Shown: positions 4,831 through 52,930 of the stretch, one piece after another
Position numbering within the stretch: the first letter of the stretch is position 1
Layout: each line of letters opens with the position of its first letter
Assembly: GCA_964514575.1 (NCBI GenBank)
Contig: CAZETJ010000002.1
Location: 1,391-65,390 of the forward strand
Reading direction: 5' to 3'
Source: an uncultured Candidatus Saccharibacteria bacterium
GTDB lineage: Bacteria > Patescibacteriota > Saccharimonadia > Saccharimonadales > UBA10212
Length of the DNA: 64,000 nucleotides
Notes under the pieces: generated by a model
Seen by the model: only the letters and a program-made list of their open reading frames with translations
Database searches by the model: none
What the model was told of the DNA's origin: nothing
Program-made: the position numbers and the translations under genes

Positions 4831-4850
4831 GTTTTATAAAAGTTGTGTGT

Positions 4851-4881
4851 GCCACCGGCCGGGAGTGTCCCGGCCGGTGGC
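4851..4881 (-). terminator. Perfect 14-bp GC-rich hairpin (GCCACCGGCCGGGA gtg TCCCGGCCGGTGGC)
   Basis: Lies 13 nt after the stop of the minus-strand high-GC ORF. Followed on that strand by ACACACAACTTTTATAAAAC. Confidence 0.8.
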
Positions 4882-4894
4882 TGTTGGCCGTCCG

Positions 4895-5473
4895 TCAGGT
4901 GAGCTTGATCGAGCTGAAGAACTTCGTGGCGAAGGCCGGCTTGGTCTTGCGTGGACCGGGGTAGTAGCCGGCGTGGATGTAGTAGACCTCGCCCCGGTGC
5001 CAGACCGTGTATCCGATGTAGCCGTACAGGTCGTTGAACTTCGCGGCCAGGTTGCCGTCGAACGTAGTTCGCGTCGGGTTCGTGACGCCGCCGTTGATGG
5101 CGGTTAGCGCCTGCCACGGATCCGAGTACTTGCTCTTGAACACGTCGATCGCATAGAACTCCTGCTGGCACCCGGAGGCGATTACTGCCTCGCACGGTTT
5201 GCCAGTCTTGACGTTGCGACCAACACCGGAGCTCCAGTCATCGGACTTCCTGGTCGCCGAAGTCGCGCCGTCGAAGACGCTGTGCCCGTAGCTGAACTTC
5301 ATTCCGGTGATGTACGGGAAGTCAGCGCAGAAGTGCGCCGTGCTGATGCAGTGGTGATGCCACGTCACTTGAGGTGACATGCTGTTCTTGAAGTTCGCGC
5401 TGGAGCTCGTCGCTGCGCTGATGAGCGCGATGACGGTCGCCAGGCAGGCAAACAAGCAGATGCGGCGGAGCAT
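4895..5473 (-). CDS. Secreted cysteine-containing protein, 192 aa, on high-GC island 1
   Basis: GGAGGGAG SD 5 nt before the ATG. Signal peptide MLRRICLFACLATVIALISAATSSSA. Strong G/C preference at third codon positions, unlike neighbouring genes. Family not recognised. Confidence 0.75.
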   Translation of the reverse strand: MLRRICLFACLATVIALISAATSSSANFKNSMSPQVTWHHHCISTAHFCADFPYITGMKFSYGHSVFDGATSATRKSDDWSSGVGRNVKTGKPCEAVIASGCQQEFYAIDVFKSKYSDPWQALTAINGGVTNPTRTTFDGNLAAKFNDLYGYIGYTVWHRGEVYYIHAGYYPGPRKTKPAFATKFFSSIKLT

Positions 5474-5581
5474 GTGACTCCCTCCCTCGGGGATAGTAGG
5501 TGCGAGTTTTCTGACGGAAAACCATTCCGAGCCGAAACTCGGTTGCGATATTATAACACTAAAGCTTATGTACGTCTATGC

Positions 5582-13013: not shown

Positions 13014-13256
13014 CTAGTCGGCTTCACTCATCACGAACCCCACCTCGGCGAGCCAGATGACGAAAGCGACGAGACCGAAACAGAAAACGACGGAGTTGTT
13101 GGAGAGGAGCAAGAAAAAGCTGAGCCAGCCGATGAAGAAGTACAGAATCGGCAGCTCCTCGAGAACCTCACCCACCAGGCTTCGAAATGGGTGATCGTAC
13201 TTCCACCTCTCTTGTTCGTAGTCGGCCTTCCGTTGTTCGTACGAACGAATGATCAC
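13014..13256 (-). CDS. Small membrane protein, 80 aa (high-GC island 2, gene 3)
   Basis: GTG start preceded by GAAAGGGG. Hydrophobic core LPILYFFIGWLSFFLLL...FCFGLVAFVIWLA. Corresponds to the C-terminal part of track ORF 13014..13466. Confidence 0.6.
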   Translation of the reverse strand: MIIRSYEQRKADYEQERWKYDHPFRSLVGEVLEELPILYFFIGWLSFFLLLSNNSVVFCFGLVAFVIWLAEVGFVMSEAD

Positions 13257-13270
13257 GCTACCCCTTTCGG

Positions 13271-13471
13271 TCAGTACGGCTCGGGGAATATGAGGCGCTC
13301 GATCGCCCAGAAGAAAGCGGCGATCAACACGCCGACGATGAGTGTGCACCAGCCGACCCAGAAGGTTCCGGTCGAGTTGCTGACGTTGTAGGCCGAGCAC
13401 ACCATTGCTGCCAAAGCGCACCACACCATGGCGGCGCAGGCTCCAGCTGCGGCGGCTACGATCCACCTCAT
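13271..13471 (-). CDS. Small 2-TM membrane protein, 66 aa (island 2, gene 2)
   Basis: The ATG overlaps the upstream stop (ATGA). Sequence MRWIVAAAAGACAAMVWCALAAMVCSAY...WCTLIVGVLIAAFFWAI. Confidence 0.6.
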   Translation of the reverse strand: MRWIVAAAAGACAAMVWCALAAMVCSAYNVSNSTGTFWVGWCTLIVGVLIAAFFWAIERLIFPEPY

Positions 13472-13665
13472 GTCATGCTCCTTTTTCGGCCTTGGTTGCG
13501 GCCTGAGCGCCATACGGCGAAGATCATGCCCCAGATGGCGCCCGGTAAGCCCGCTTCGAATGCTGTCCACGCATCGTGGCCGTCGCCTAGAACGACTAGA
13601 ACTGCCGTTGGTATGAGCATCAATACCAACCACGTGTAGGCGAACCACTCCCATCTCTTGTCCAT
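13468..13665 (-). CDS. Small 2-TM membrane protein, 65 aa (island 2, gene 1)
   Basis: GGGAGA SD 5 nt before the ATG. Sequence MDKRWEWFAYTWLVLMLIPTAVLVVLG...AIWGMIFAVW. Confidence 0.6.
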   Translation of the reverse strand: MDKRWEWFAYTWLVLMLIPTAVLVVLGDGHDAWTAFEAGLPGAIWGMIFAVWRSGRNQGRKRSMT

Positions 13666-31163: not shown

Positions 31164-31241
31164 GGGCCCATAGCTCAGCCTGGTTAGAGCAGCGGCCTTT
31201 TAAGCCGCGTGTCGTGGGTTCAAATCCCACTGGGCCCTCCA
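31164..31241 (+). tRNA. tRNA-Lys (UUU)
   Basis: Cloverleaf folded by hand. Anticodon loop CUUUUAA. CCA encoded. Confidence 0.9.
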
Positions 31242-31290: not shown

Positions 31291-32739
31291 TTGCTCGCTT
31301 TCTGGCATGATGGATTTATGCGCAGGCTTCGGCGGACAACCTTAATTACCGCTGGCTGTTTATCGATCTTGGCTGGTTTGGGCTTAGCCCGCATAGTATC
31401 TTTTTCACCAAGCGACTGGCTGATATTTCTCTGGCCGATAGTATTATTACTTAAACGAAAAAATCTGACAGCCTTATTTCTGGTTGTATTACTCGGCATT
31501 GGCGTGGGTCTATGGCGGGGCACGCTATATATGCAAAAGCTGGGGCAACTCAGGCAGCTGACGGGACAACAGGTGATTGTCCAAGCTATGGCTACTAGCG
31601 ACTCGGTTTATTCGTCGGGCAACCAAATGGAATTCACTGCTAATAAGTCAGTGCTAATACCGCAACAACAACCGTTGGCAGGCTCTTTCAAAATCAGCGG
31701 CTTCGGCGTCCACATGGTTTATCGTGGCGATACAGTAAGAGTCGCCGGTAAACTTTATGCGATGCGCGGCTCAAACCAGGCCCGGATCTCTTACGCGCAG
31801 CTAGCCGTCGTTCAGGCTGGGCACAGTTGGTCTAGTGATTTATCGCGCCGATTCTCAGCGGGCATGCAGAATGCTCTGCCGGAGCCGCAGTCCAGTTTTG
31901 GTATGGGGCTATTGATCGGCCAGCGCATTAATTTGCCAGAACTAATTACGGCCGAACTAACTGCCGTTGGCCTAGTGCATATTGTGGCGGTCAGCGGTTA
32001 CAACCTGACGATCTTGATCCGCGGTGTTCAACGGCTACGACTAAGATCCAAGTACCAACAGTTAGCTGTTTCACTGGTTCTGATCGCTACCTTCATTACG
32101 ATCACTGGTTTTAGTGCTTCAATTGTCCGGGCGGCTTTGGTCAGTTCTCTCAGCCTATGGGCATGGTATTATGGCCGGCGTATCAAGCCGGCTGTACTCA
32201 TTGGTTTCGCGGCAGCTTTGACGGGAATGATTAACCCGTTTTATGTCTGGGGCGATATGAGCTGGTACCTATCTTTTCTGGCGTTTTTTGGCGTTATGAT
32301 TATCGCACCGATCATACAAGCCCGCCTGTTTAAAAAATCTCCCAAAATTCTGACCAGCGTTTTAATTGAAACGCTAAGCGCCGAGCTGATGACTCTGCCG
32401 ATAATTATGTTGAGCTTCAATCAACTATCAATGGTGGCCTTACTGGCCAATGTGATGATAGTACCGCTAGTGCCGGTCGCTATGTTGCTGGCCGCAATAG
32501 CCGGCACGGCCGGTATGCTTATCCCTCAGGTTGCCGGCTGGTTCGCTTTGCCGGCTCGGTTACTTTTGACGTATATGTTAGATATCATTCACCTGCTGGC
32601 TTCGATTCCGTCGGTTCTGATGCATCTATCAATCAGCGTGACCTATATGCTCGCCTTTTATATAGCTGTATTGATGGTTCTTTTAGTTGCTCACAAACAC
32701 ATCAAAAATAAAAAACCGGCTGACTTCGCACGAATTTAA
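31291..32739 (+). CDS. comEC: DNA internalisation competence protein ComEC/Rec2 (membrane channel part)
   Basis: Polytopic, with the GLVHIVAVSGYNLTIL competence-domain motif. Start uncertain (TTG 31291 or ATG 31318). Confidence 0.8.
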   Translation: MLAFWHDGFMRRLRRTTLITAGCLSILAGLGLARIVSFSPSDWLIFLWPIVLLLKRKNLTALFLVVLLGIGVGLWRGTLYMQKLGQLRQLTGQQVIVQAMATSDSVYSSGNQMEFTANKSVLIPQQQPLAGSFKISGFGVHMVYRGDTVRVAGKLYAMRGSNQARISYAQLAVVQAGHSWSSDLSRRFSAGMQNALPEPQSSFGMGLLIGQRINLPELITAELTAVGLVHIVAVSGYNLTILIRGVQRLRLRSKYQQLAVSLVLIATFITITGFSASIVRAALVSSLSLWAWYYGRRIKPAVLIGFAAALTGMINPFYVWGDMSWYLSFLAFFGVMIIAPIIQARLFKKSPKILTSVLIETLSAELMTLPIIMLSFNQLSMVALLANVMIVPLVPVAMLLAAIAGTAGMLIPQVAGWFALPARLLLTYMLDIIHLLASIPSVLMHLSISVTYMLAFYIAVLMVLLVAHKHIKNKKPADFARI

Positions 32740-32747
32740 TAAAAGAA

Positions 32748-32773
32748 AATGGGCGGTCCGGAGACCGCCCATT
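32748..32773 (-). terminator. Perfect hairpin AATGGGCGGTC cgga GACCGCCCATT
   Basis: Lies 2 nt after the minus-strand high-GC ORF stop. Followed on the minus strand by TTTCTTTTATT. Confidence 0.8.
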
Positions 32774-32775
32774 CC

Positions 32776-33264
32776 TCACTTGCCCCGGTCGAGATAGCTG
32801 TAGGTGCTGATCGTGTTGGAGGGGTATCCCTCCACGAAGGCCTCGGCCTGGACCTCGAAGATCCACGAGTCATCGACCCCGGAAGAAGGACCCGGGGGCG
32901 TCAGGACGTCGTAACGAATCTTCGGGATCGTCTGCCATGCCTGGAGCGTGTAGTGCAACGTGCGCACATTCCACGGTCCGTTCGACGAGCTCGAATCCCA
33001 GGACGTGAACTCCACGGTGACGTGCTGGACCTGCGCAGAGCGTGAGCTCAGTGAGAACAGATAGGTCATGTGGCCGTTCCAGACGTAGTACGACGCCGGC
33101 GAGAAGTTCGCATTCCAGCCAAGGACGGCTGGCTGCGGGTAGTGCGCGTCCGCTGGTGCGGCCTTGGCAATCGCTGCGAGAGCGAGTGCTCCGAGGCAGA
33201 AGACGAAGATCACGCAGCCCAGCGCAAAGATACGCTTGGGCCCTTGCGGGATAATCCTAGACAC
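32776..33264 (-). CDS. Secreted protein, about 162 aa, on high-GC island 3
   Basis: GTG start with AAAGGA 7 nt upstream. Signal peptide ...FALGCVIFVFCLGALALAAIAKAAPADA. Strong G/C third positions. Family not recognised. Confidence 0.7.
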   Translation of the reverse strand: MSRIIPQGPKRIFALGCVIFVFCLGALALAAIAKAAPADAHYPQPAVLGWNANFSPASYYVWNGHMTYLFSLSSRSAQVQHVTVEFTSWDSSSSNGPWNVRTLHYTLQAWQTIPKIRYDVLTPPGPSSGVDDSWIFEVQAEAFVEGYPSNTISTYSYLDRGK

Positions 33265-33403
33265 GGAAGTGTCCTTTCGACGGGGGAATGATAGCAAATG
33301 AGGTGCTCCGGCGAGGGAGCGGGCCACAAAAGTGGCGCATCACCCCACAGGATTCGAATATTTTAGCATAAACGTTATAAAAAAGCAACTCCCAGGCTGT
33401 GTT

Positions 33404-33425
33404 AACACCTTAAAAGTGTTAAAAT
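33404..33425 (+). promoter_or_regulatory. AACACCTTAAAA box plus an extended -10 (TGtTAAAAT), 6 nt before the yebC ATG
   Basis: The same 12-mer recurs at 38414-38425 in front of another -10 box. Confidence 0.45.
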
Positions 33426-33431
33426 AGGGGT

Positions 33432-34163
33432 ATGAGTGGTCATAGCAAGTGGTCAACAATCAAGCGCCAAAAAGGTGTTAACGATGCCAAGCGCGGCGCT
33501 TTGTTTACTAAATTGGGCAACCAGATCGCCATAGCGGCTAGGTCAGGCACTGACCCCGCCACTAATTCTTCCTTAGCTATGGTGATCGAGAAAGCCAAAA
33601 AAGCCAGCATGCCAAATGTAAATATCGAGCGTTCTATTGCCCGGGCAGCTGATAAATCTGCAGTCGCCTTAGAAGAGAACATGTATGAGGGCTATGGCTC
33701 GGGCGGCGTCGCGGTCTTGGTCGAAGTAGCCACTGATAATAAAAACCGTACTTACCCCGAAGTCCGTGCGGCCTTTTCCAAACATGGCGGCAGTCTGGCC
33801 GGCGCTGGCAGCGTGGCTTTCCAGTTTAGCCGCAAGGGCGTGATTCGTCTAAAAGGTCTTGGGGAAGATTTGGAGTTGGCAGCTATTGAAGCCGGCGCCG
33901 AAGATGTTTATGAAGAACCAGAAACCAGTGAAACCGTTGTTCACACGGCTCCAACCGAATTGGCCAAAGTCCGAGACGCCCTGATTGCCGCGGGGCTAGA
34001 AGTTGAGGACGCCGAGCTGACCTACGTGCCCAACGATGTTATTAAAGTTTCCGATAGCGAGACTGCCCGTAAAGTTATGAACCTTATGAATGCCCTGGAA
34101 GACATCGATGAAGTCGTGGCTACGCACACCAATTTTGATATAGACGAAGGCGTGCAGGTTTAG
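33432..34163 (+). CDS. yebC: YebC/PmpR family DNA-binding regulator
   Basis: MSGHSKWSTIKRQKG..DAKRG..F.KL is a hallmark N-terminus. Confidence 0.95.
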   Translation: MSGHSKWSTIKRQKGVNDAKRGALFTKLGNQIAIAARSGTDPATNSSLAMVIEKAKKASMPNVNIERSIARAADKSAVALEENMYEGYGSGGVAVLVEVATDNKNRTYPEVRAAFSKHGGSLAGAGSVAFQFSRKGVIRLKGLGEDLELAAIEAGAEDVYEEPETSETVVHTAPTELAKVRDALIAAGLEVEDAELTYVPNDVIKVSDSETARKVMNLMNALEDIDEVVATHTNFDIDEGVQV

Positions 34164-34165
34164 CC

Positions 34166-34804
34166 ATGAGATTATTTTTATCAAGCGAGAACCTGGGCGA
34201 ATACCCAGAAGCATTTATTGAGCTGGTCGGCGACAACAACAAGCTGGCCTTTATCGAAAATGCTAAAGACGACTGGACGCTTGATGATCGTACCGCTAAA
34301 CTCCAAGAGCACAAGCATCAGTTCAGACAGCTTGGCTTTGACGTTCATGAGCTAGACCTTAGAGATTTCTTTGGTAAAGCCGATAAGCTAGACAATTGGC
34401 TAAAAGATTTTGGTGGCGTGTTCGCTGCCGGTGGAAATTCATTTATACTACGTCGCGCCATGGCCCAAAGCGGTCTAGACAAGATCCTGATAAAACGGAC
34501 GAAAGATGACTCCGTAGCTTACGGCGGTTCAAGCGCTGGGAGCATAGTCGTTACGCCAAGCTTAAGGGGTAGCGAACATGGTGATTATCCTGATGTTGTG
34601 CCCAAAGGCTACGATAAAAAAATAATTTGGAAAGGGCTAAGCCTGGTCCCGTTTTATGTCGTGCCGCACTACAAGTCGAGTTGGTGGGGCGAGGAGGCTG
34701 ACATTATGGTCCGGAAACTCAAGGCCAAGGACTCACGCCATTACAAATTGCGAGACGGACAAGTCATAGTCGTTGAGGCTGGTAAAATCGAGTATCTAAA
34801 ATGA
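34166..34804 (+). CDS. Peptidase S51 (dipeptidase E-like)
   Basis: GGNSFILRRAM and GGSSAGSIV (Ser nucleophile context). Confidence 0.7.
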   Translation: MRLFLSSENLGEYPEAFIELVGDNNKLAFIENAKDDWTLDDRTAKLQEHKHQFRQLGFDVHELDLRDFFGKADKLDNWLKDFGGVFAAGGNSFILRRAMAQSGLDKILIKRTKDDSVAYGGSSAGSIVVTPSLRGSEHGDYPDVVPKGYDKKIIWKGLSLVPFYVVPHYKSSWWGEEADIMVRKLKAKDSRHYKLRDGQVIVVEAGKIEYLK

Positions 34805-37663: not shown

Positions 37664-37740
<77 letters not shown>

Positions 37741-37765
37741 GCTTAGGCCGTGACTCCAGCTTCCG

Positions 37766-37788
37766 TAAAACAGCGGGAGCTGTTTTAG
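37766..37788 (+). terminator. Hairpin TAAAACAGC ggga GCTGTTTTA
   Basis: 9-bp stem with a T-run, 25 nt after the tRNA. Confidence 0.6.
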
Positions 37789-37963
37789 TTTCAGCTTCCA
37801 CACGTCCTTACGCTTAACAAAACTGGAAGAATCTGCAAGCAGGATCTTCCAGTTTTGTGCAGAACCAGTAGGATGTATCGTTGCTGCTTTTCCATCCGGC
37901 TTATCCTCAAGCCGGATAGGCAGGGAGTTAGGACCACCTGCGGTATCCAGGTGAGGCGCAAGG

Positions 37964-37969
37964 TATAAT
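37964..37969 (+). promoter_or_regulatory. -10 TATAAT, 7 nt before the ATG at 37977 (leaderless-type)
   Basis: TATAAT-tattctt-ATG with no SD. Confidence 0.45.
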
Positions 37970-37976
37970 TATTCTT

Positions 37977-38411
37977 ATGAGGCTGCAGCCGATAAAAATC
38001 AAAAAACACTTTACGACCAGCAATGTGGCGCTTTATATCTTCGCGCTAATCGTGCTGGCTATAACCTGGAGTGGTGTAAAAACCATCCAAAGCAACTATG
38101 AGCTGCAAAAACAGGTATCTGTTCTAAAGCAACAAAATGACGTGACGAGCCTACAGAACCAAACTATCCAGCTCAAAAATCAATATTACGCCACCGACCA
38201 ATACTTGGATTTAGCGGCTCGCCAAGATCTTGGACTGGCAGCACCCGGCGAACAAGTTCTGTTGATCTCTAAAGCTACCGCACTCAAGTATGTTAATACT
38301 TCGATTGCTTCCCAAGTTCAAATTTCAAAAAGTGACACTCGACCGCAATTTATAAAAAATATGGAAGCTTGGCGAGACTTTTTGCTTGGACGAAACGTCA
38401 GTGGCAATTGA
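37977..38411 (+). CDS. Septum formation initiator (FtsB/DivIC-like)
   Basis: N-terminal TM followed by a coiled coil (YELQKQVSVLKQQNDVTSLQNQTIQLKNQ) and YLDLAARQDLGL. Confidence 0.7.
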   Translation: MRLQPIKIKKHFTTSNVALYIFALIVLAITWSGVKTIQSNYELQKQVSVLKQQNDVTSLQNQTIQLKNQYYATDQYLDLAARQDLGLAAPGEQVLLISKATALKYVNTSIASQVQISKSDTRPQFIKNMEAWRDFLLGRNVSGN

Positions 38412-38459
38412 CCAACACCTTAAAACGGGTTAGAATACGAAGCTAGTGCCCTTTGGGGC

Positions 38460-38571
38460 CCCCGCAAAATTTATTTTGTGGGGAGAGGAGAAGCAGCGAT
38501 AAGCTGAAGGAGCGAACAACTGAGACAAGGGTTGGTCGCCTCCGCAAGCTGACAGCTTGCTTCGACGACGA
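38460..38571 (+). ncRNA. Structured tRNA 5' leader, copy E
   Basis: P0 CCCCGCAAAA 38460-69 / TTTTGTGGGG 38474-83; GAGAGGAG 38483-90; P1 GAAGCA 38490-95 / TGCTTC 38558-63; GACGA 38567-71. A TAGAAT -10 lies at 38431-36. Confidence 0.6.
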
Positions 38572-38646
38572 CGCGGGGTGGAGCAGTAGTAGCTCGCATG
38601 GCTCATAACCATGAGGTCGCAGGTGCAAATCCTGCCCCCGCTACCA
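38572..38646 (+). tRNA. Initiator tRNA-fMet (CAU)
   Basis: CGCGGGGTGGAGCAG start with an unpaired 1:72 position (C:U). CCA encoded. Confidence 0.88.
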
Positions 38647-38653
38647 CGAAAAG

Positions 38654-38679
38654 CGCCCGACGCAAGGTCGGGTGTTTTT
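38654..38679 (+). terminator. Rho-independent terminator CGCCCGAC gcaag GTCGGGTG TTTTT
   Basis: 8-bp stem with one G:U pair, plus a T5 run. Confidence 0.75.
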
Positions 38680-38797
38680 CGTGGAGGGGCAGTCTGCACC
38701 TAACCGACAGAGAATTTTAAAATCTTAGTGATTAAGTCAGCGATAAATTCACAGACGCTTTTCTAGCGTGAACTCAGAGTGCCCCCGGCACTCTTCG

Positions 38798-38822
38798 GGT
38801 GCAAATCCTGCCCCCGCTACCA
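38798..38822 (+). repeat. 25-nt exact direct repeat of the tRNA-fMet 3' end (GGTGCAAATCCTGCCCCCGCTACCA)
   Basis: Identical to 38622-38646. Confidence 0.9.
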
Positions 38823-38924
38823 AGCATAAGCATTTTGACCTCTGAGAATAGAGGTCTTTTTGTTTGGCTTATGCTTGCGTAGAAATAATAACTTAATATA
38901 GGATTTAATTAATCGGAGCAAATT

Positions 38925-39356
38925 ATGTTGAGAGAAGATGATAAAAGAGGTTTTGTTTGGGAGTACGAAAGCTGGGCGTTTGGCGGTAATAGGCAGTGGG
39001 CAGAACCAGAGGAAGCAATTTCTGTTGGTGAACGAGTTGGTGAAGAGCTTTTTGATAGATTTGTAGGCGAAGATAGGGACTATGGTGATAGCCCCGAAGT
39101 CCGTGATAGTGCTCATAGGGTATTAGACACAGCACTTGAAGTTGTTGATTATGCAGCCCTTCCAACTGAACGAAGAGCCAATATTTTGCGTGGAGTAATA
39201 AACACACTCGAAAGCACTGGTGCATTAGGGGGCAGACCTGAGTGGGCAAAGGTCCAACCACGAGAGCGAATGTTCGGCAACAATCTTCGTCATGCTATAT
39301 CAACAATACGAAACCTAAGAAATCGACGCCTGAGAAGTGCAAACCCTACCGCCTAG
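38925..39356 (+). CDS. Hypothetical protein, 143 aa
   Basis: ORF in a visibly AT-richer stretch just after the tRNA-end repeat. No motif recognised. Confidence 0.5.
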   Translation: MLREDDKRGFVWEYESWAFGGNRQWAEPEEAISVGERVGEELFDRFVGEDRDYGDSPEVRDSAHRVLDTALEVVDYAALPTERRANILRGVINTLESTGALGGRPEWAKVQPRERMFGNNLRHAISTIRNLRNRRLRSANPTA

Positions 39357-39597
39357 ACACTGACAGGGCTATCTCTCCTAATCTCGTTCACTATCTTCCA
39401 CATAGTTATCAGTTCTCGTTTAACCTGGTTCCATTTCGGCTCTATCACGCCTACCAAGTTTGATTGCAGATAGAGATTGGTTCCAAAACCAGTCTCTATT
39501 TGATTTACCCTCTGTTATGGAAGTTTGAGTTCCGGTCGATTTGATCACATACTCATGCGGACAATGAGCGTATACTAAAGTCACCAAGGAGATTCGC

Positions 39598-39984
39598 ATG
39601 AATAAAGCATTGATGGTAATTATCGCAGTAGTGGTTCTGGCAGTGGGAGGTTGGGTTATTTATGATCGCCATAAGACAAATAGCAATACGAATAATTCAT
39701 CGTCCAATTCGAGCCAATCTGTGACATCGACGGGCGCAATAACTATTAAGAATATGATGTTCACACCCTCTCAAATATCAATTCAAAAAGGCGGGACAGT
39801 TACTTGGACAAACAACGATAGCACTACGCACACGGTAGTCGACGACTTAAGCAATGTCGGCGGACCATCCAGCGGAGATATCCAGCCTGGTTCAACCTAT
39901 AGTTTTACCTTTAATAAAACGGGTTCATTCCAGTACCACTGTAGTATTCACCCGTCTATGCGCGGAACAATAGTCGTTAAATAG
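39598..39984 (+). CDS. Cupredoxin (plastocyanin/azurin-like) with an N-terminal anchor
   Basis: AAGGAG SD. HTV...YHCSIHPSMRG type-1 copper ligand pattern (H, C, H, M). Confidence 0.8.
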   Translation: MNKALMVIIAVVVLAVGGWVIYDRHKTNSNTNNSSSNSSQSVTSTGAITIKNMMFTPSQISIQKGGTVTWTNNDSTTHTVVDDLSNVGGPSSGDIQPGSTYSFTFNKTGSFQYHCSIHPSMRGTIVVK

Positions 39985-40071
39985 GCTCTAGTCTTTCAGC
40001 TCAAATATGCTATCAGATTGAATCAAAAACTCCCTCGAACGAGGGAGTTTTCTGTTAGAAAACGACTAAAC

Positions 40072-40326
40072 TTAGCGATTTTCTTTAGGACGAGCCACGT
40101 CGACCGAGATGGTCCGGCCGCCAAGATCGGCGCCGTTCATGGCTGCTTGGGCAGCTTTGCCTTCTTCTTCGTTTTCGAACTCAACGAAGCCGAAGCCTTT
40201 GCTGCGGCCACTTTCGCGGTCACGGACAACAGTAGCGCTGGCTACAGTACCATGAGCGGCAAAAGCGTCACGAAGCTCTTCATCGGTGGTTGCGAAAGGC
40301 AATCCGCCTACAAATAGTTTGTACAT
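40072..40326 (-). CDS. RRM-type RNA-binding protein, 84 aa
   Basis: RNP2 KLFVGGL and RNP1 KGFGFVEF. Confidence 0.9.
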   Translation of the reverse strand: MYKLFVGGLPFATTDEELRDAFAAHGTVASATVVRDRESGRSKGFGFVEFENEEEGKAAQAAMNGADLGGRTISVDVARPKENR

Positions 40327-40569
40327 TCAATTTTTCCTTAATCTTATTTACTTAGGAACGACCACTTATAGTCTGATTCAGATTCGGCCGGTCCTAACAG
40401 ATCTTCAGGCGCCAATGCTTTATCGAACAGAACAGATAAGATCCTAACTAGCAAGAGTTAACCATAAATCGTTTAATAAAACAACGACCCTATAAAAGAT
40501 TATTGTTGACAAGCATTAGAACTATATATAATCTGAGCTTAGTTCACAAAAAACAAAAAGGAAAAAGTA

Positions 40570-40647
40570 ATGTCAGCGCCACAATTCATAATGCCGCAGA
40601 CCAGTCCTGAGTTTAGCGAGATTGATAAAATCTTGATGAACAGCTAA
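40570..40647 (+). CDS. Possible 25-aa peptide (MSAPQFIMPQTSPEFSEIDKILMNS)
   Basis: A TTGACA...TATAAT promoter about 50 nt upstream and AAGGA 8 nt before the ATG. Confidence 0.3.
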   Translation: MSAPQFIMPQTSPEFSEIDKILMNS

Positions 40648-40663
40648 CGGCTGGCGGTCACGA

Positions 40664-40695
40664 AATAACAGATGCTATACTACATCTGTTATTTT
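40664..40695 (+). terminator. Hairpin AATAACAGATG ctatacta CATCTGTTATT + TT
   Basis: 11-bp stem, 9 nt upstream of tRNA-Met. Confidence 0.5.
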
Positions 40696-40704
40696 AGTTT
40701 GCGA

Positions 40705-40781
40705 GGCAGGGTAGCTCAGTTGGTTAGAGCACAGGACTCATAAGCCTGCGGTCGCGAGTTCGAATCTCGCCCCTGCTACCA
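40705..40781 (+). tRNA. Elongator tRNA-Met (CAU)
   Basis: Cloverleaf folded by hand. Has a G1:U72 wobble and an A31:G39 mismatch. Confidence 0.8.
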
Positions 40782-52435: not shown

Positions 52436-52930
52436 ATGTTTGCAATGGTCGACTATGACGCGTTGCAGAGAATCGTGCGCTTAACGCACGCCGACCCGCT
52501 GACACAGGCGATCGCCATGTTCATCCTCGGCGGAAAGACCGGCGATCGTCGAGATGCCGTGCTCGATGCAGCTATGACGGGGCTCACCTCAGACGACGTA
52601 CGCACCATGTTCGGCGACAGGGTCAGGATGGAGCTCCTGCTCAACAAGGATCTTGATCGCCTAGAGGACGACGACCCATGCCAATGGGCTCGCCTGATCA
52701 AGGCCGATGGGCGCGGAAACCCGCATGACAGCGCGTTCTACCAGCTGTCGCCGTTCAGGGGGAAGCGCATTGCCTTCTTCACCTACGGAGACCAGGTCGA
52801 CGTGCTTCTTCGTGGCTCGGTGTACAACGGGGACCTCCCTGGCACGGATTTCCTCCTGGTCATCGACGCGAACGCGCCCTTCAAGGACGCGGAGGTGCAC
52901 TCCCTGAGCCAGCTTTCCGCCGTCGAGTAG
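52436..52930 (+). CDS. Cytoplasmic protein, 164 aa, on high-GC island 4
   Basis: GGAAAGGTGG SD. No signal peptide. Strong G/C third positions. Family not recognised. Confidence 0.7.
   Translation: MFAMVDYDALQRIVRLTHADPLTQAIAMFILGGKTGDRRDAVLDAAMTGLTSDDVRTMFGDRVRMELLLNKDLDRLEDDDPCQWARLIKADGRGNPHDSAFYQLSPFRGKRIAFFTYGDQVDVLLRGSVYNGDLPGTDFLLVIDANAPFKDAEVHSLSQLSAVE

What the first reader, a model, noticed from the sequence alone, without database searches (positions are those of the whole stretch)
32748..33345. High-GC island 3: secreted, Cys-free protein of about 162 aa between comEC and yebC
The architecture matches island 1. A resident-type promoter (TTGCTT-N17-TAAAAT, about 33386-33358 on the minus strand) is followed by a GC-rich 5' UTR of about 95 nt. 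The GTG start has an AAAGGA SD and is followed by a signal peptide ending AKAAPADA. The mature protein is rich in W, Y, S and T and looks all-beta. A perfect 11-bp hairpin lies 2 nt after the stop.

I recognise no family. The track start (33327) is probably too far upstream.
Basis: partly seen in the sequence, partly recalled or inferred. Interest (0 to 1): 0.55.

Follow-up and report, generated by a model that had tools for sequence, protein, structure and literature searches.

The report
Swappable secreted-protein slot in Saccharibacteria
A small gene for an exported, all-beta protein of unknown function sits between comEC and yebC in an uncultured Saccharibacterium (TM7); close relatives keep the same leader and export signal there but carry unrelated protein bodies, so it is a recombination-shuffled variable locus and not a fresh import from a high-GC bacterium.

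Summary
Window 32740-33386 (minus strand) is a complete one-gene unit:
- an AT-rich promoter
- a 93-nt GC-rich leader
- AAAGGA-N7-GTG
- a 35-aa Sec-type signal peptide (AKA|AP)
- a 127-aa Cys-free all-beta mature domain
- an 11-bp perfect hairpin terminator

GC steps from 0.21 in the promoter to 0.59-0.63 in the transcribed part. GC3 is 0.81, against 0.54 +/- 0.09 for the window's genes. Eight independent assemblies are 100% identical, so it is not a chimera.

The host is a Candidatus Saccharimonadales bacterium. The implied origin, import from a high-GC Gram-positive, is not supported. Searches of 1.84 and 5.8 billion proteins found one credible homologue. It is a 34%-identical protein in the same comEC/yebC slot of a distant Saccharimonadales, and it is also GC3-rich.

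In close relatives the same leader, signal peptide and terminator flank two other, sequence-unrelated mature domains (weakly DUF11-like). One contig is a mosaic with a crossover inside the signal-peptide codons.

Best reading: a lineage-endemic, polymorphic secreted Ig-like beta-sandwich protein whose body is exchanged by homologous recombination. Its biochemical function is unknown, and the cause of the high GC3 is unexplained.

The parts
33358..33386 (-). Promoter TTGCTT-N17-TAAAAT with a TG extended -10. It is AT-rich (GC 0.21).
   Evidence: Read; GC. The motif TTGCTTTTTTATAnnGTTTATGnTAAnAT is conserved at filled slots of L100, L025, L023 and L009, with a more diverged version in L020. It is absent from empty slots. 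It falls below the scan's consensus threshold. No transcription data are available.
33265..33357 (-). 5' UTR of about 93 nt, GC 0.59. It contains a predicted structured element at 33298-33348 and the SD AAAGGA at 33272-33277. In the structured element, an 8-bp closing stem GUGGGGUG/CACCUCAU encloses two hairpins.
   Evidence: 86 of 93 nt are identical to L009, while 4-fold sites of neighbouring genes are only 42-47% identical. Fold energy is -32.2 kcal/mol, z = -2.5. Hairpin 1 shows a compensatory series C-G > U-G > U-A. The closing-stem sequence recurs in the distant L100 leader. There is no Rfam match.
33160..33264 (-). GTG start and a 35-aa Sec/SPase I-type signal peptide, MSRIIPQGPKRIFALGCVIFVFCLGALALAAIAKA|AP.
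   Evidence: The AKA|AP motif is shared with the orthologue P0008. The N-terminal 31 residues are shared with cassette types B and C. The cleavage site is inferred from sequence rules and was not predicted by a tool.
32779..33159 (-). Mature domain of 127 aa (type A). It is Cys-free, all-beta, and predicted to be an Ig-like beta-sandwich. The stop codon is at 32776-32778.
   Evidence: AF2 on a two-sequence alignment gave pLDDT 73, pTM 0.69 and 8 strands. Foldseek finds only generic beta-sandwich matches, TM 0.5-0.58. The one credible homologue is P0008, 34% identical, E = 6e-15.
32785..33153 (-). Replaceable segment. This is the stretch with no DNA similarity to the syntenic gene of L009, which has 498 bp here.
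   Evidence: The 5' break against types B and C is at about codon 31. The 3' break is just before the conserved GGCAAGTGA.
32740..32775 (-). Intrinsic terminator with an 11-bp perfect stem (13 pairs counting G-U), a 4-nt loop and a T-run. It lies between the convergent X and comEC genes.
   Evidence: L009 carries compensatory changes that keep the stem, and L101 (type C) is 100% identical over 33 nt.
33190..34430 (.). Tract of raised identity to the L009 lineage: 0.87-0.95 against a background of 0.75-0.80. It covers the 5' part of the S51 peptidase gene, yebC, the intergenic region, the leader and the signal peptide, and it stops at the cassette.
   Evidence: YebC is 99.2% identical at the protein level, with 4-fold sites 72% identical, against 42-47% in S51, ruvA and rimK.
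31291..32739 (+). comEC, the left flank of the slot. It converges on X.
   Evidence: Pfam Competence on the identical JGI gene. comEC lies upstream of yebC in most of the closer Saccharimonadales loci examined.
33432..34163 (+). yebC, the right flank of the slot. It is transcribed divergently from X.

Best explanation
Window 32740-33386 (minus strand) is a self-contained one-gene expression module in a slot between comEC and yebC of an uncultured Candidatus Saccharimonadales (TM7, Patescibacteria) genome.

**How it probably works**
- A promoter drives a roughly 0.6-kb mRNA with a structured, GC-rich 5' leader.
- Translation starts at GTG 33264.
- The Sec pathway exports the product, and signal peptidase I probably cleaves it after AKA (residue 35).
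- This releases a 127-aa Cys-free beta-sandwich protein with no detectable anchor.

**What kind of locus it is**
- It is a polymorphic locus endemic to one Saccharimonadales subclade.
- The leader, most of the signal peptide, the last codons (GGCAAGTGA) and the terminator act as conserved arms.
- Between these arms, at least three sequence-unrelated mature domains (A here, B and C in close relatives) are exchanged by homologous recombination.
- DNA taken up through natural competence is the likely route.

**Shown**
- The anatomy of the module.
- The restriction of homologues to this slot.
- The alternative bodies.
- The mosaic haplotypes.

**Inferred**
- Export and cleavage of the protein.
- The recombination route.
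- A role at the cell surface or in contact with the host bacterium, under diversifying selection.

The cause of the high GC3 is not established.
For: **Host and slot**
- The best YebC relatives are all Saccharimonadales MAGs.
- comEC lies upstream of yebC in 25 of the 57 Saccharibacteria loci recovered, including most of those with the highest YebC identity. Of these 25, 18 have a gap of only 13-137 bp and 7 have a larger gap.
- Slots that carry a gene are confined to one subclade and interleave with empty ones.

**The gene is real and endemic**
- P0008 is 34% identical (E = 6e-15). It has its own signal peptide with AKA|AP and occupies the same slot, in a genome whose YebC is 74% and ComEC 61% identical.

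**Alternative bodies**
- L009 has YebC 99% and ComEC 88% identical to the window. Its leader is 92% identical (86 of 93 nt) and it has the same first 31 residues, but its mature domain is unrelated and 168 aa long.
- P0011 on L101 has the same signal peptide and a third body.
- hhalign of type A against types B and C gives probability 1%.

**Recombination**
- L102 is 98.6% identical to L101 over yebC, promoter, leader and signal peptide. It is 99-100% identical to L009 from the cassette onward.
- The terminator of L101 is 100% window-type.
- A 1.2-kb tract of raised identity abuts the cassette.
- Types A and C occur in the same metagenome sample, 3300031249.

**Competence**
Saccharibacteria are naturally competent and integrate DNA by homologous recombination with arms of about 1 kb (PMC10633639).

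**Fold**
Against: - No expression, secretion or cleavage data exist, and no SignalP run was possible. The 22-residue hydrophobic core could instead act as an uncleaved membrane anchor.
- The structural model rests on a two-sequence alignment. Only the best of five models reaches pLDDT 73; the others score 65, 48, 38 and 36.
- Only four haplotypes were recovered, all from two sequencing projects.
- The YebC tree is a single-gene NJ tree of a gene that itself recombines.
- The model does not explain why the transcribed unit is GC3-rich, nor why yebC, which lies inside the recombining tract, keeps a normal GC3 of 0.53.
- Function in host interaction is inference only.
Confidence: 0.65

Rival explanations
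1. Recent horizontal import of the gene from a high-GC Gram-positive (for example an actinobacterial host of the epibiont), placed under a resident promoter.
For: - GC3 is 0.81-0.85 against 0.54 for the window's genes, with sharp boundaries at the promoter and terminator.
- Cultivated Saccharibacteria live on Actinobacteria (PMC10633639).
- Housekeeping and chaperone genes such as dnaK, grpE, recA and ftsH have normal GC3, so general translational selection does not explain the bias.
Against: - No credible homologue exists outside the slot in 1.84e9 and 5.8e9 protein sets.
- The orthologue in a distant relative sits in the same slot with the same GC3.
- Cassettes B and C are orphans too.
- The promoter is conserved with the module across different genes.
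- No integrase, att site or adjacent tRNA is present.
Confidence: 0.08
2. The cassettes circulate in an unsampled high-GC gene pool (a high-GC Saccharimonadales lineage or an unknown mobile element). They are imported repeatedly into the slot through the conserved arms. In that case GC3 reflects donor composition and not a force acting in this genome.
For: - Types A, A2, B and C and the L025 slot gene all have GC3 of 0.78-0.86, whatever the protein.
- The GC-rich part includes the non-coding leader and the terminator.
- Mosaic haplotypes show that exchange happens.
- The window has two more GC3-rich orphan genes.
Against: - No such donor is seen in any collection.
- The slot genes of L023 and L028 are not GC3-rich.
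- The leader is shared by close relatives only and differs in L100.
Confidence: 0.2
3. Programmed intragenomic variation. A single expression site (promoter, leader, signal peptide) receives alternative bodies from silent cassettes elsewhere in the same genome, as in Mycoplasma vsa or Neisseria pilE/pilS.
For: The conserved 5' expression region with alternative bodies, and a junction inside or just after the signal peptide, resemble those systems.
Against: - No copy of the B or C body exists in the 64-kb window (tblastn), and no repeat of the leader does either.
- No recombinase is adjacent.
- Breakpoints differ: A against B/C at about codon 31, and B against C at about codon 39. This fits homologous rather than site-specific exchange.
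- All eight type A assemblies are identical.
Confidence: 0.06
4. Assembly chimera or spurious ORF.
For: The abrupt composition change, and long antisense ORFs inside the island.
Against: - Eight independent assemblies are identical through both junctions.
- Codon-position GC shows strong periodicity in this frame.
- An orthologue is conserved with a matching hydrophobic pattern.
- The terminator shows compensatory changes.
Confidence: 0.01

Closest known systems
Mycoplasma variable surface lipoprotein loci (vlp, vsp, vsa). Recalled from my own knowledge and not tested here.
   Same: The promoter/5' UTR and signal-peptide sequence are highly conserved. They are followed by divergent mature surface-protein regions, and variation is generated by recombination.
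   Different: - Those are multi-copy families within one genome.
- They encode lipoproteins with a lipobox.
- They switch by site-specific inversion or repeat slippage.
- Here there is one copy per genome in the DNA seen, no lipobox, variation between co-occurring lineages, and breakpoints typical of homologous recombination.
Allelic replacement at hypervariable loci of naturally transformable bacteria, where conserved flanks recombine around non-homologous alleles. General knowledge; competence in Saccharibacteria is from PMC10633639.
   Same: Conserved arms, unrelated central alleles, mosaic haplotypes and a raised-identity tract next to the variable part.
   Different: The arms lie inside the transcription unit, in the leader, the signal peptide and the terminator. 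The exchange therefore swaps only the mature protein body while keeping expression and export signals.
DUF11 (PF01345) and other Ig-like beta-sandwich secreted or surface domains
   Same: - The slot gene of L020 is a true DUF11 protein (43.8 bits against a cut-off of 24.6).
- Types B and C give weak DUF11 hits.
- The type A model is also an Ig-like beta-sandwich.
   Different: Type A has no Pfam hit at E <= 10 and no profile similarity to types B and C. The likeness is at the level of fold class only.
5' stem-loop or SD-like mRNA stabilisers of Gram-positive bacteria (for example the cryIIIA STAB-SD). Recalled from my own knowledge.
   Same: A stable structure lies about 10 nt from the predicted 5' end, and it contains the SD-like GAGGUGAU paired with the anti-SD-like CACCUCA.
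   Different: Nothing was tested. There is no Rfam family, and the covariation rests on four sequences.

Membership tests
Sec/SPase I secreted protein | Positively charged n-region, a hydrophobic h-region, small residues at -3 and -1 (AXA), and no lipobox | tested here: met
   - By direct reading: K10 and R11; hydrophobic core at residues 12-33 with mean hydropathy 2.6; A33-K34-A35|A36.
- AKA|AP is conserved in P0008, and AHA|AT is found in types B and C.
- C17 is not conserved and C23 lies mid-core, so there is no L-x-G/A-C lipobox.
- No dedicated predictor was available.
Sec/SPase I secreted protein | Demonstrated export and cleavage | not testable with these tools
   This needs proteomics or a reporter fusion.
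DUF11 (PF01345) | Pfam HMM score above the gathering cut-off of 24.6 bits | tested here: not met
   - Type A (P0001) and P0008 give no hit.
- L020_X scores 43.8 bits and meets the cut-off.
- P0002 scores 18.9 bits and P0011 14.1 bits, both below it.
Genomic island acquired from a high-GC donor | Compositional anomaly relative to the host genome | tested here: met
   GC3 is 0.81 against 0.54 +/- 0.087, with sharp boundaries.
Genomic island acquired from a high-GC donor | Homologues in a candidate donor clade | tested here: not met
   The only credible homologue is a Saccharimonadales slot orthologue. No viral match was found.
Genomic island acquired from a high-GC donor | Mobility signatures: integrase, direct repeats, or a tRNA target | tested here: not met
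   There is no such ORF between comEC and yebC. The nearest tRNA (Lys, 31164-31241) lies beyond comEC. No repeats of the island occur in the window.
Programmed antigenic-variation cassette system (expression site plus silent cassettes) | Silent copies of alternative bodies in the same genome | tested here: inconclusive
   None occur in the 64-kb window. The rest of the genome was not available.
Polymorphic toxin / CDI-like systems | A variable C-terminal toxin followed by a cognate immunity gene | tested here: not met
   The gene is monocistronic. The terminator starts right after the stop codon, and the next gene is the convergent comEC.
Integron gene cassette | An attC site and an integrase, with a promoterless ORF carrying its own start | tested here: not met
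   The exchanged segment starts inside the signal-peptide codons and has no start codon of its own. No intI is nearby.
Intrinsic (Rho-independent) terminator | A GC-rich stem-loop followed by a T-run | tested here: met
   13 pairs, 7 of them G-C, a 4-nt loop and a T-run. L009 carries compensatory substitutions.

The most novel reading that the evidence does not exclude
The slot is a plug-in expression platform specific to a clade of Saccharimonadales. A fixed promoter, structured leader, signal peptide and terminator accept any small beta-sandwich body. The alternative bodies would be alleles of a host-recognition or host-range determinant kept polymorphic by frequency-dependent selection. The GC3-rich coding, shared with two other orphan genes in the window, would be actively maintained, for instance by selection on the mRNA, and would not be a relic of transfer.
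Probability: 0.2. Interest if true: 0.7.

Novelty: new variant of a known kind. Interest (0 to 1): 0.45.

Why it matters
Saccharibacteria are obligate epibionts whose host range and attachment factors are largely unknown, and most of their small secreted proteins are orphans.

A locus where expression and export signals stay fixed while the exported body is swapped between co-occurring lineages is a concrete candidate for a determinant under host-driven or competitor-driven diversifying selection. It also gives in-situ evidence that homologous recombination shuffles alleles in uncultured soil TM7. This is consistent with the natural competence shown in cultured strains.

There is a methodological lesson too. 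A sharp GC3 island is not in itself evidence of recent foreign origin, because here the signature persists across deep divergence at one locus.

If the persistent GC3 bias turns out to be selected, it would be an unusual case of gene-specific codon composition in a reduced genome.

Tried and rejected
**Searches that found nothing**
- An exact 26-mer of the leader in genome contigs: 0 hits.
- The leader in viral contigs: 0 hits. A type A profile in viral contigs: none confirmed.
- Rfam on the leader and terminator: only sub-threshold noise.
- Pfam, NCBIfam, PHROGs and PDB sequence searches for type A: nothing.
- A profile of B, C and L020_X against 5.8e9 proteins found only those three. No outside source for those bodies was found.

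**Searches of limited value**
- The metagenome scan with the N-terminal peptide found only one locus. One pattern required an ATG start, while these genes start with GTG.
- Single-sequence AF2 gave pLDDT 45.6 and was unusable.
- A scan for GC3 outliers of at least +0.2 in 494 ORFs of other Saccharibacteria yebC loci found none. At +0.13 or more, five outliers appeared in those loci, of which only L025's is a slot gene; the slot genes of L009, L102 and L001, added to that scan, were also flagged.

**Hits judged not credible**
- P0009 (2093 aa, 19 tandem weak matches) and P0010 (3103 aa, repeats) were judged repeat-inflated and not credible homologues. I did not verify this further.

**Readings rejected**
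- Lipoprotein: there is no conserved lipobox.
- Prepilin: there is no G|F/M-x-x-x-E motif.
- Translational selection as the cause of high GC3: dnaK, grpE, recA and ftsH have normal GC3.
- Biased gene conversion alone: yebC lies inside the recombining tract and has GC3 0.53.

Full report
**1. What is in the sequence**

On the minus strand the region reads as follows:
- TTGCTT-N17-TAAAAT at 33386-33358, with TG just before the -10.
- A 93-nt leader at 33357-33265.
- AAAGGA, a 7-nt spacer, then a GTG at 33264.
- A 162-codon ORF ending with TGA at 32776-32778.
- Two nt later, an 11-bp perfect hairpin (AATGGGCGGTC/TCCG/GACCGCCCATT) followed by a T-run.

GC content steps sharply across these parts:

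| Segment | GC |
|---|---|
| Promoter | 0.21 |
| Leader | 0.59 |
| Signal-peptide codons | 0.60 |
| Mature-domain codons | 0.62 |
| Terminator | 0.63 |
| Window mean | 0.494 |

The excess lies at synonymous sites. GC1/2/3 are 0.54/0.49/0.81, and the mature part has GC3 0.85. The 69 long ORFs of the window have GC3 0.54 +/- 0.087. Housekeeping and chaperone genes have ordinary GC3: dnaK 0.58, grpE 0.49, recA 0.56, ftsH 0.55. The bias is therefore not general translational selection.

**2. It is not an assembly artefact, and the start codon is 33264**

The identical protein (P0001) is called on at least 10 JGI contigs. Eight loci from eight different samples are 100% identical to the window through the gene and both junctions, and L001 is identical over 12.5 kb.

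JGI's gene call starts at the same GTG. The distant orthologue also starts at a GTG, preceded by AAGGAGG. The longer 183-aa ORF starting at 33327 has no SD.

**3. The host**

All the best YebC relatives are Candidatus Saccharimonadales (Saccharibacteria) MAGs, at up to 79% amino-acid identity. The neighbouring genes are ordinary core genes: rimK, comEC, yebC, an S51 peptidase, ruvC, ruvA and dus.

**4. Homologues**

- Pfam, NCBIfam, PHROGs and PDB sequence searches give nothing.
- A word-indexed search of 5.8e9 proteins found only P0001 and P0002. P0002 matches only over the N-terminal 44 residues.
- A full phmmer of the mature domain against 1.84e9 representatives found one credible homologue, P0008: 156 aa, 34% identical, E = 6e-15.
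- Two giant repeat proteins also scored in that search, through many weak repeated matches. I do not regard them as homologues.

P0008 lies in the same slot and the same orientation (yebC <- | X -> | <- comEC), in a contig whose YebC is 74% and ComEC 61% identical to the window's. Its GC3 is 0.78, while its neighbours have 0.42-0.58.

The gene family is therefore endemic to this slot of Saccharimonadales. Its high GC3 persists across deep divergence, which argues against a recent import that has not yet ameliorated.

**5. The slot in relatives**

comEC lies upstream of yebC in 25 of the 57 Saccharibacteria loci recovered, including most of those with the highest YebC identity. Of these 25:
- 18 have a gap of only 13-137 bp.
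- Four have gaps of 716-1189 bp that carry a different small protein with an N-terminal hydrophobic signal: L020, L023, L025 and L028.
- Three have intermediate gaps of 205-275 bp with no clear gene.

L020's protein is a genuine DUF11 protein.

In a YebC NJ tree, slots that carry a gene fall in one subclade and interleave with empty ones. This is a rough guide only.

The promoter TTGCTTTTTTATAnnGTTTATGnTAAnAT is shared by the window, L009, L100, L025 and L023, with a more diverged version in L020, whatever gene follows. Empty slots lack it and keep only the yebC-proximal AAGGTGTTA motif. The promoter therefore belongs to the module.

**6. Alternative bodies behind one leader**

L009 is a close relative: YebC 99.2% and ComEC 87.5% identical at the amino-acid level. 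Against the window it compares as follows:
- Leader: 86 of 93 nt identical.
- First 31 codons: conserved.
- Last codons (GGCAAGTGA) and terminator: conserved.
- Between these: 369 bp in the window and 498 bp in L009, with no similarity.

Its product P0002 has an unrelated 168-aa body.

A third body, P0011 on L101, follows the same signal peptide. It carries its own TAA stop placed just before GGCAAGTGA, and its terminator is 100% identical to the window's over 33 nt.

Types B, C and L020_X are weakly related to each other (phmmer E about 1e-4; sub-threshold DUF11 hits). Type A shows no profile similarity to them (hhalign probability 1%). A profile of B, C and L020_X finds nothing else in 5.8e9 proteins.

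Both GC3 values are again high: 0.825 for type B and 0.856 for type C.

**7. Evidence for recombination**

- *Mosaic contig.* L102 is 98.6% identical to L101 over the yebC end, promoter, leader and signal peptide. From about codon 37 onward it is 99-100% identical to L009, through the type B body and comEC. One body is thus linked to two upstream haplotypes, and one upstream haplotype to two bodies.
- *Raised-identity tract.* Background identity between the window and L009 is 0.75-0.80, and 4-fold sites are 42-47% identical. From 34430 to 33190 identity rises to 0.87-0.95, and yebC 4-fold sites are 72% identical. The tract ends at the cassette.
- *Variable breakpoints.* A differs from B and C from about codon 31. 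B differs from C from about codon 39. This fits homologous rather than site-specific exchange.
- *Co-occurrence.* Types A and C occur in the same sample.
- *A plausible route.* Saccharibacteria are naturally competent and integrate DNA through homologous arms of about 1 kb (PMC10633639).
- *No sign of programmed switching.* The window holds no silent copies of B or C and no repeat of the leader.

**8. The protein**

The N-terminus has the features of a monoderm Sec signal peptide: K10 and R11, a 22-residue hydrophobic core, and AKA|AP. The cleavage motif is conserved in P0008, and it is AHA|AT in types B and C. There is no conserved lipobox, no prepilin motif and no C-terminal anchor.

AF2 on the two-sequence alignment gives an eight-strand all-beta model with pLDDT 73 and pTM 0.69. 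The other four models are worse.

Foldseek finds only generic Ig-like sandwiches, with TM 0.5-0.58 and about 10% identity. Examples are:
- the TMEM106B luminal domain
- the B. subtilis Ipi inhibitor
- GH2 and transglutaminase accessory domains

I conclude that it is a small exported beta-sandwich. A binding, adhesion or inhibitor role is plausible but not shown.

**9. The leader**

The 93-nt leader is far more conserved than neutral sites. It folds better than shuffles, z = -2.5.

The consensus fold is an 8-bp stem (GUGRGGUG/CACCUCAU) enclosing two hairpins. Across the window, L009 and L101, hairpin 1 shows a compensatory series C-G > U-G > U-A. The same stem sequence encloses a single hairpin in L100.

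There is no Rfam match. A role as an mRNA stabiliser or a regulatory element is inference only.

**10. What remains unexplained**

Why the transcribed unit, and the alternative bodies, are GC3-rich. The readings compare as follows:
- *Recent actinobacterial import:* not supported (section 4).
- *General translational selection:* excluded.
- *Biased gene conversion alone:* does not fit, because yebC inside the recombining tract has normal GC3.
- *An unsampled high-GC donor pool, or selection on the mRNA:* both remain open.

The window has two further GC3-rich orphan genes, at 4895-5473 and 52436-52930.

**11. Verdict**

The implied origin is not supported.

The feature is a lineage-endemic, polymorphic secreted-protein module whose mature domain is exchanged by homologous recombination between conserved leader and terminator arms. 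It is a new variant of a known kind of locus, with an orphan protein family. It is of moderate interest.

Noticed in passing
window 4850-5560 (minus strand): 'Island 1' is a 192-aa orphan ORF at 4895-5473 with GC3 0.87. Its architecture matches the finding but its sequence is unrelated: a TATAAT -10, a 5' hairpin CCGAG/CTCGG in the leader, a GGGAGG SD, an N-terminal signal peptide and a strong hairpin terminator. Pfam, NCBIfam and PHROGs give no hit.
   Followed up: partly
window 52436-52930 (+): This is the third GC3 outlier (0.79). It is a 164-aa protein without a signal peptide. It has only a sub-threshold Pfam hit to the CDI immunity family CdiI_3 (17.9 bits against a cut-off of 28).
   Followed up: partly
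window 13014-13654: A GC-rich stretch (about 0.60) carries several overlapping ORFs on both strands, and none is clearly the gene. The longest has GC3 0.67.
   Followed up: no
window 33190-34430: yebC and the 5' part of the S51 peptidase gene are much more similar to the L009 lineage than the rest of the genome is. YebC is 99% identical at the protein level and 72% at 4-fold sites, against 42-47% elsewhere. This indicates a recent inter-lineage recombination tract.
   Followed up: yes
window 33350-33359 (minus strand); L100 about 1345-1354: The motif ATTCGAATCC contains the 8-bp palindrome ATTCGAAT. It occurs once in the window, at the predicted transcript start of the slot gene. It also occurs in the leader of the distant orthologue, but just upstream of the SD. 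It may be a protein-binding site or chance; 19 of 100 shuffles give at least one match in the window.
   Followed up: partly
window 31164-31241 versus L009 6635-6715: The tRNA-Lys(UUU) gene next to comEC is 96% identical between the two lineages but inverted relative to its flanks. L009 also has an extra 106-aa ORF there.
   Followed up: no
L028 2875-3948: In one relative the comEC/yebC slot holds a 357-aa protein with an N-terminal hydrophobic signal on the opposite strand, co-directional with yebC. It has normal GC3 (0.52) and no Pfam hit.
   Followed up: no
window 37664-40781: Three tRNA genes with a CAT anticodon lie within about 3 kb. They are presumably the initiator, the elongator and the tRNA-Ile2 precursor. 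This looks ordinary.
   Followed up: no
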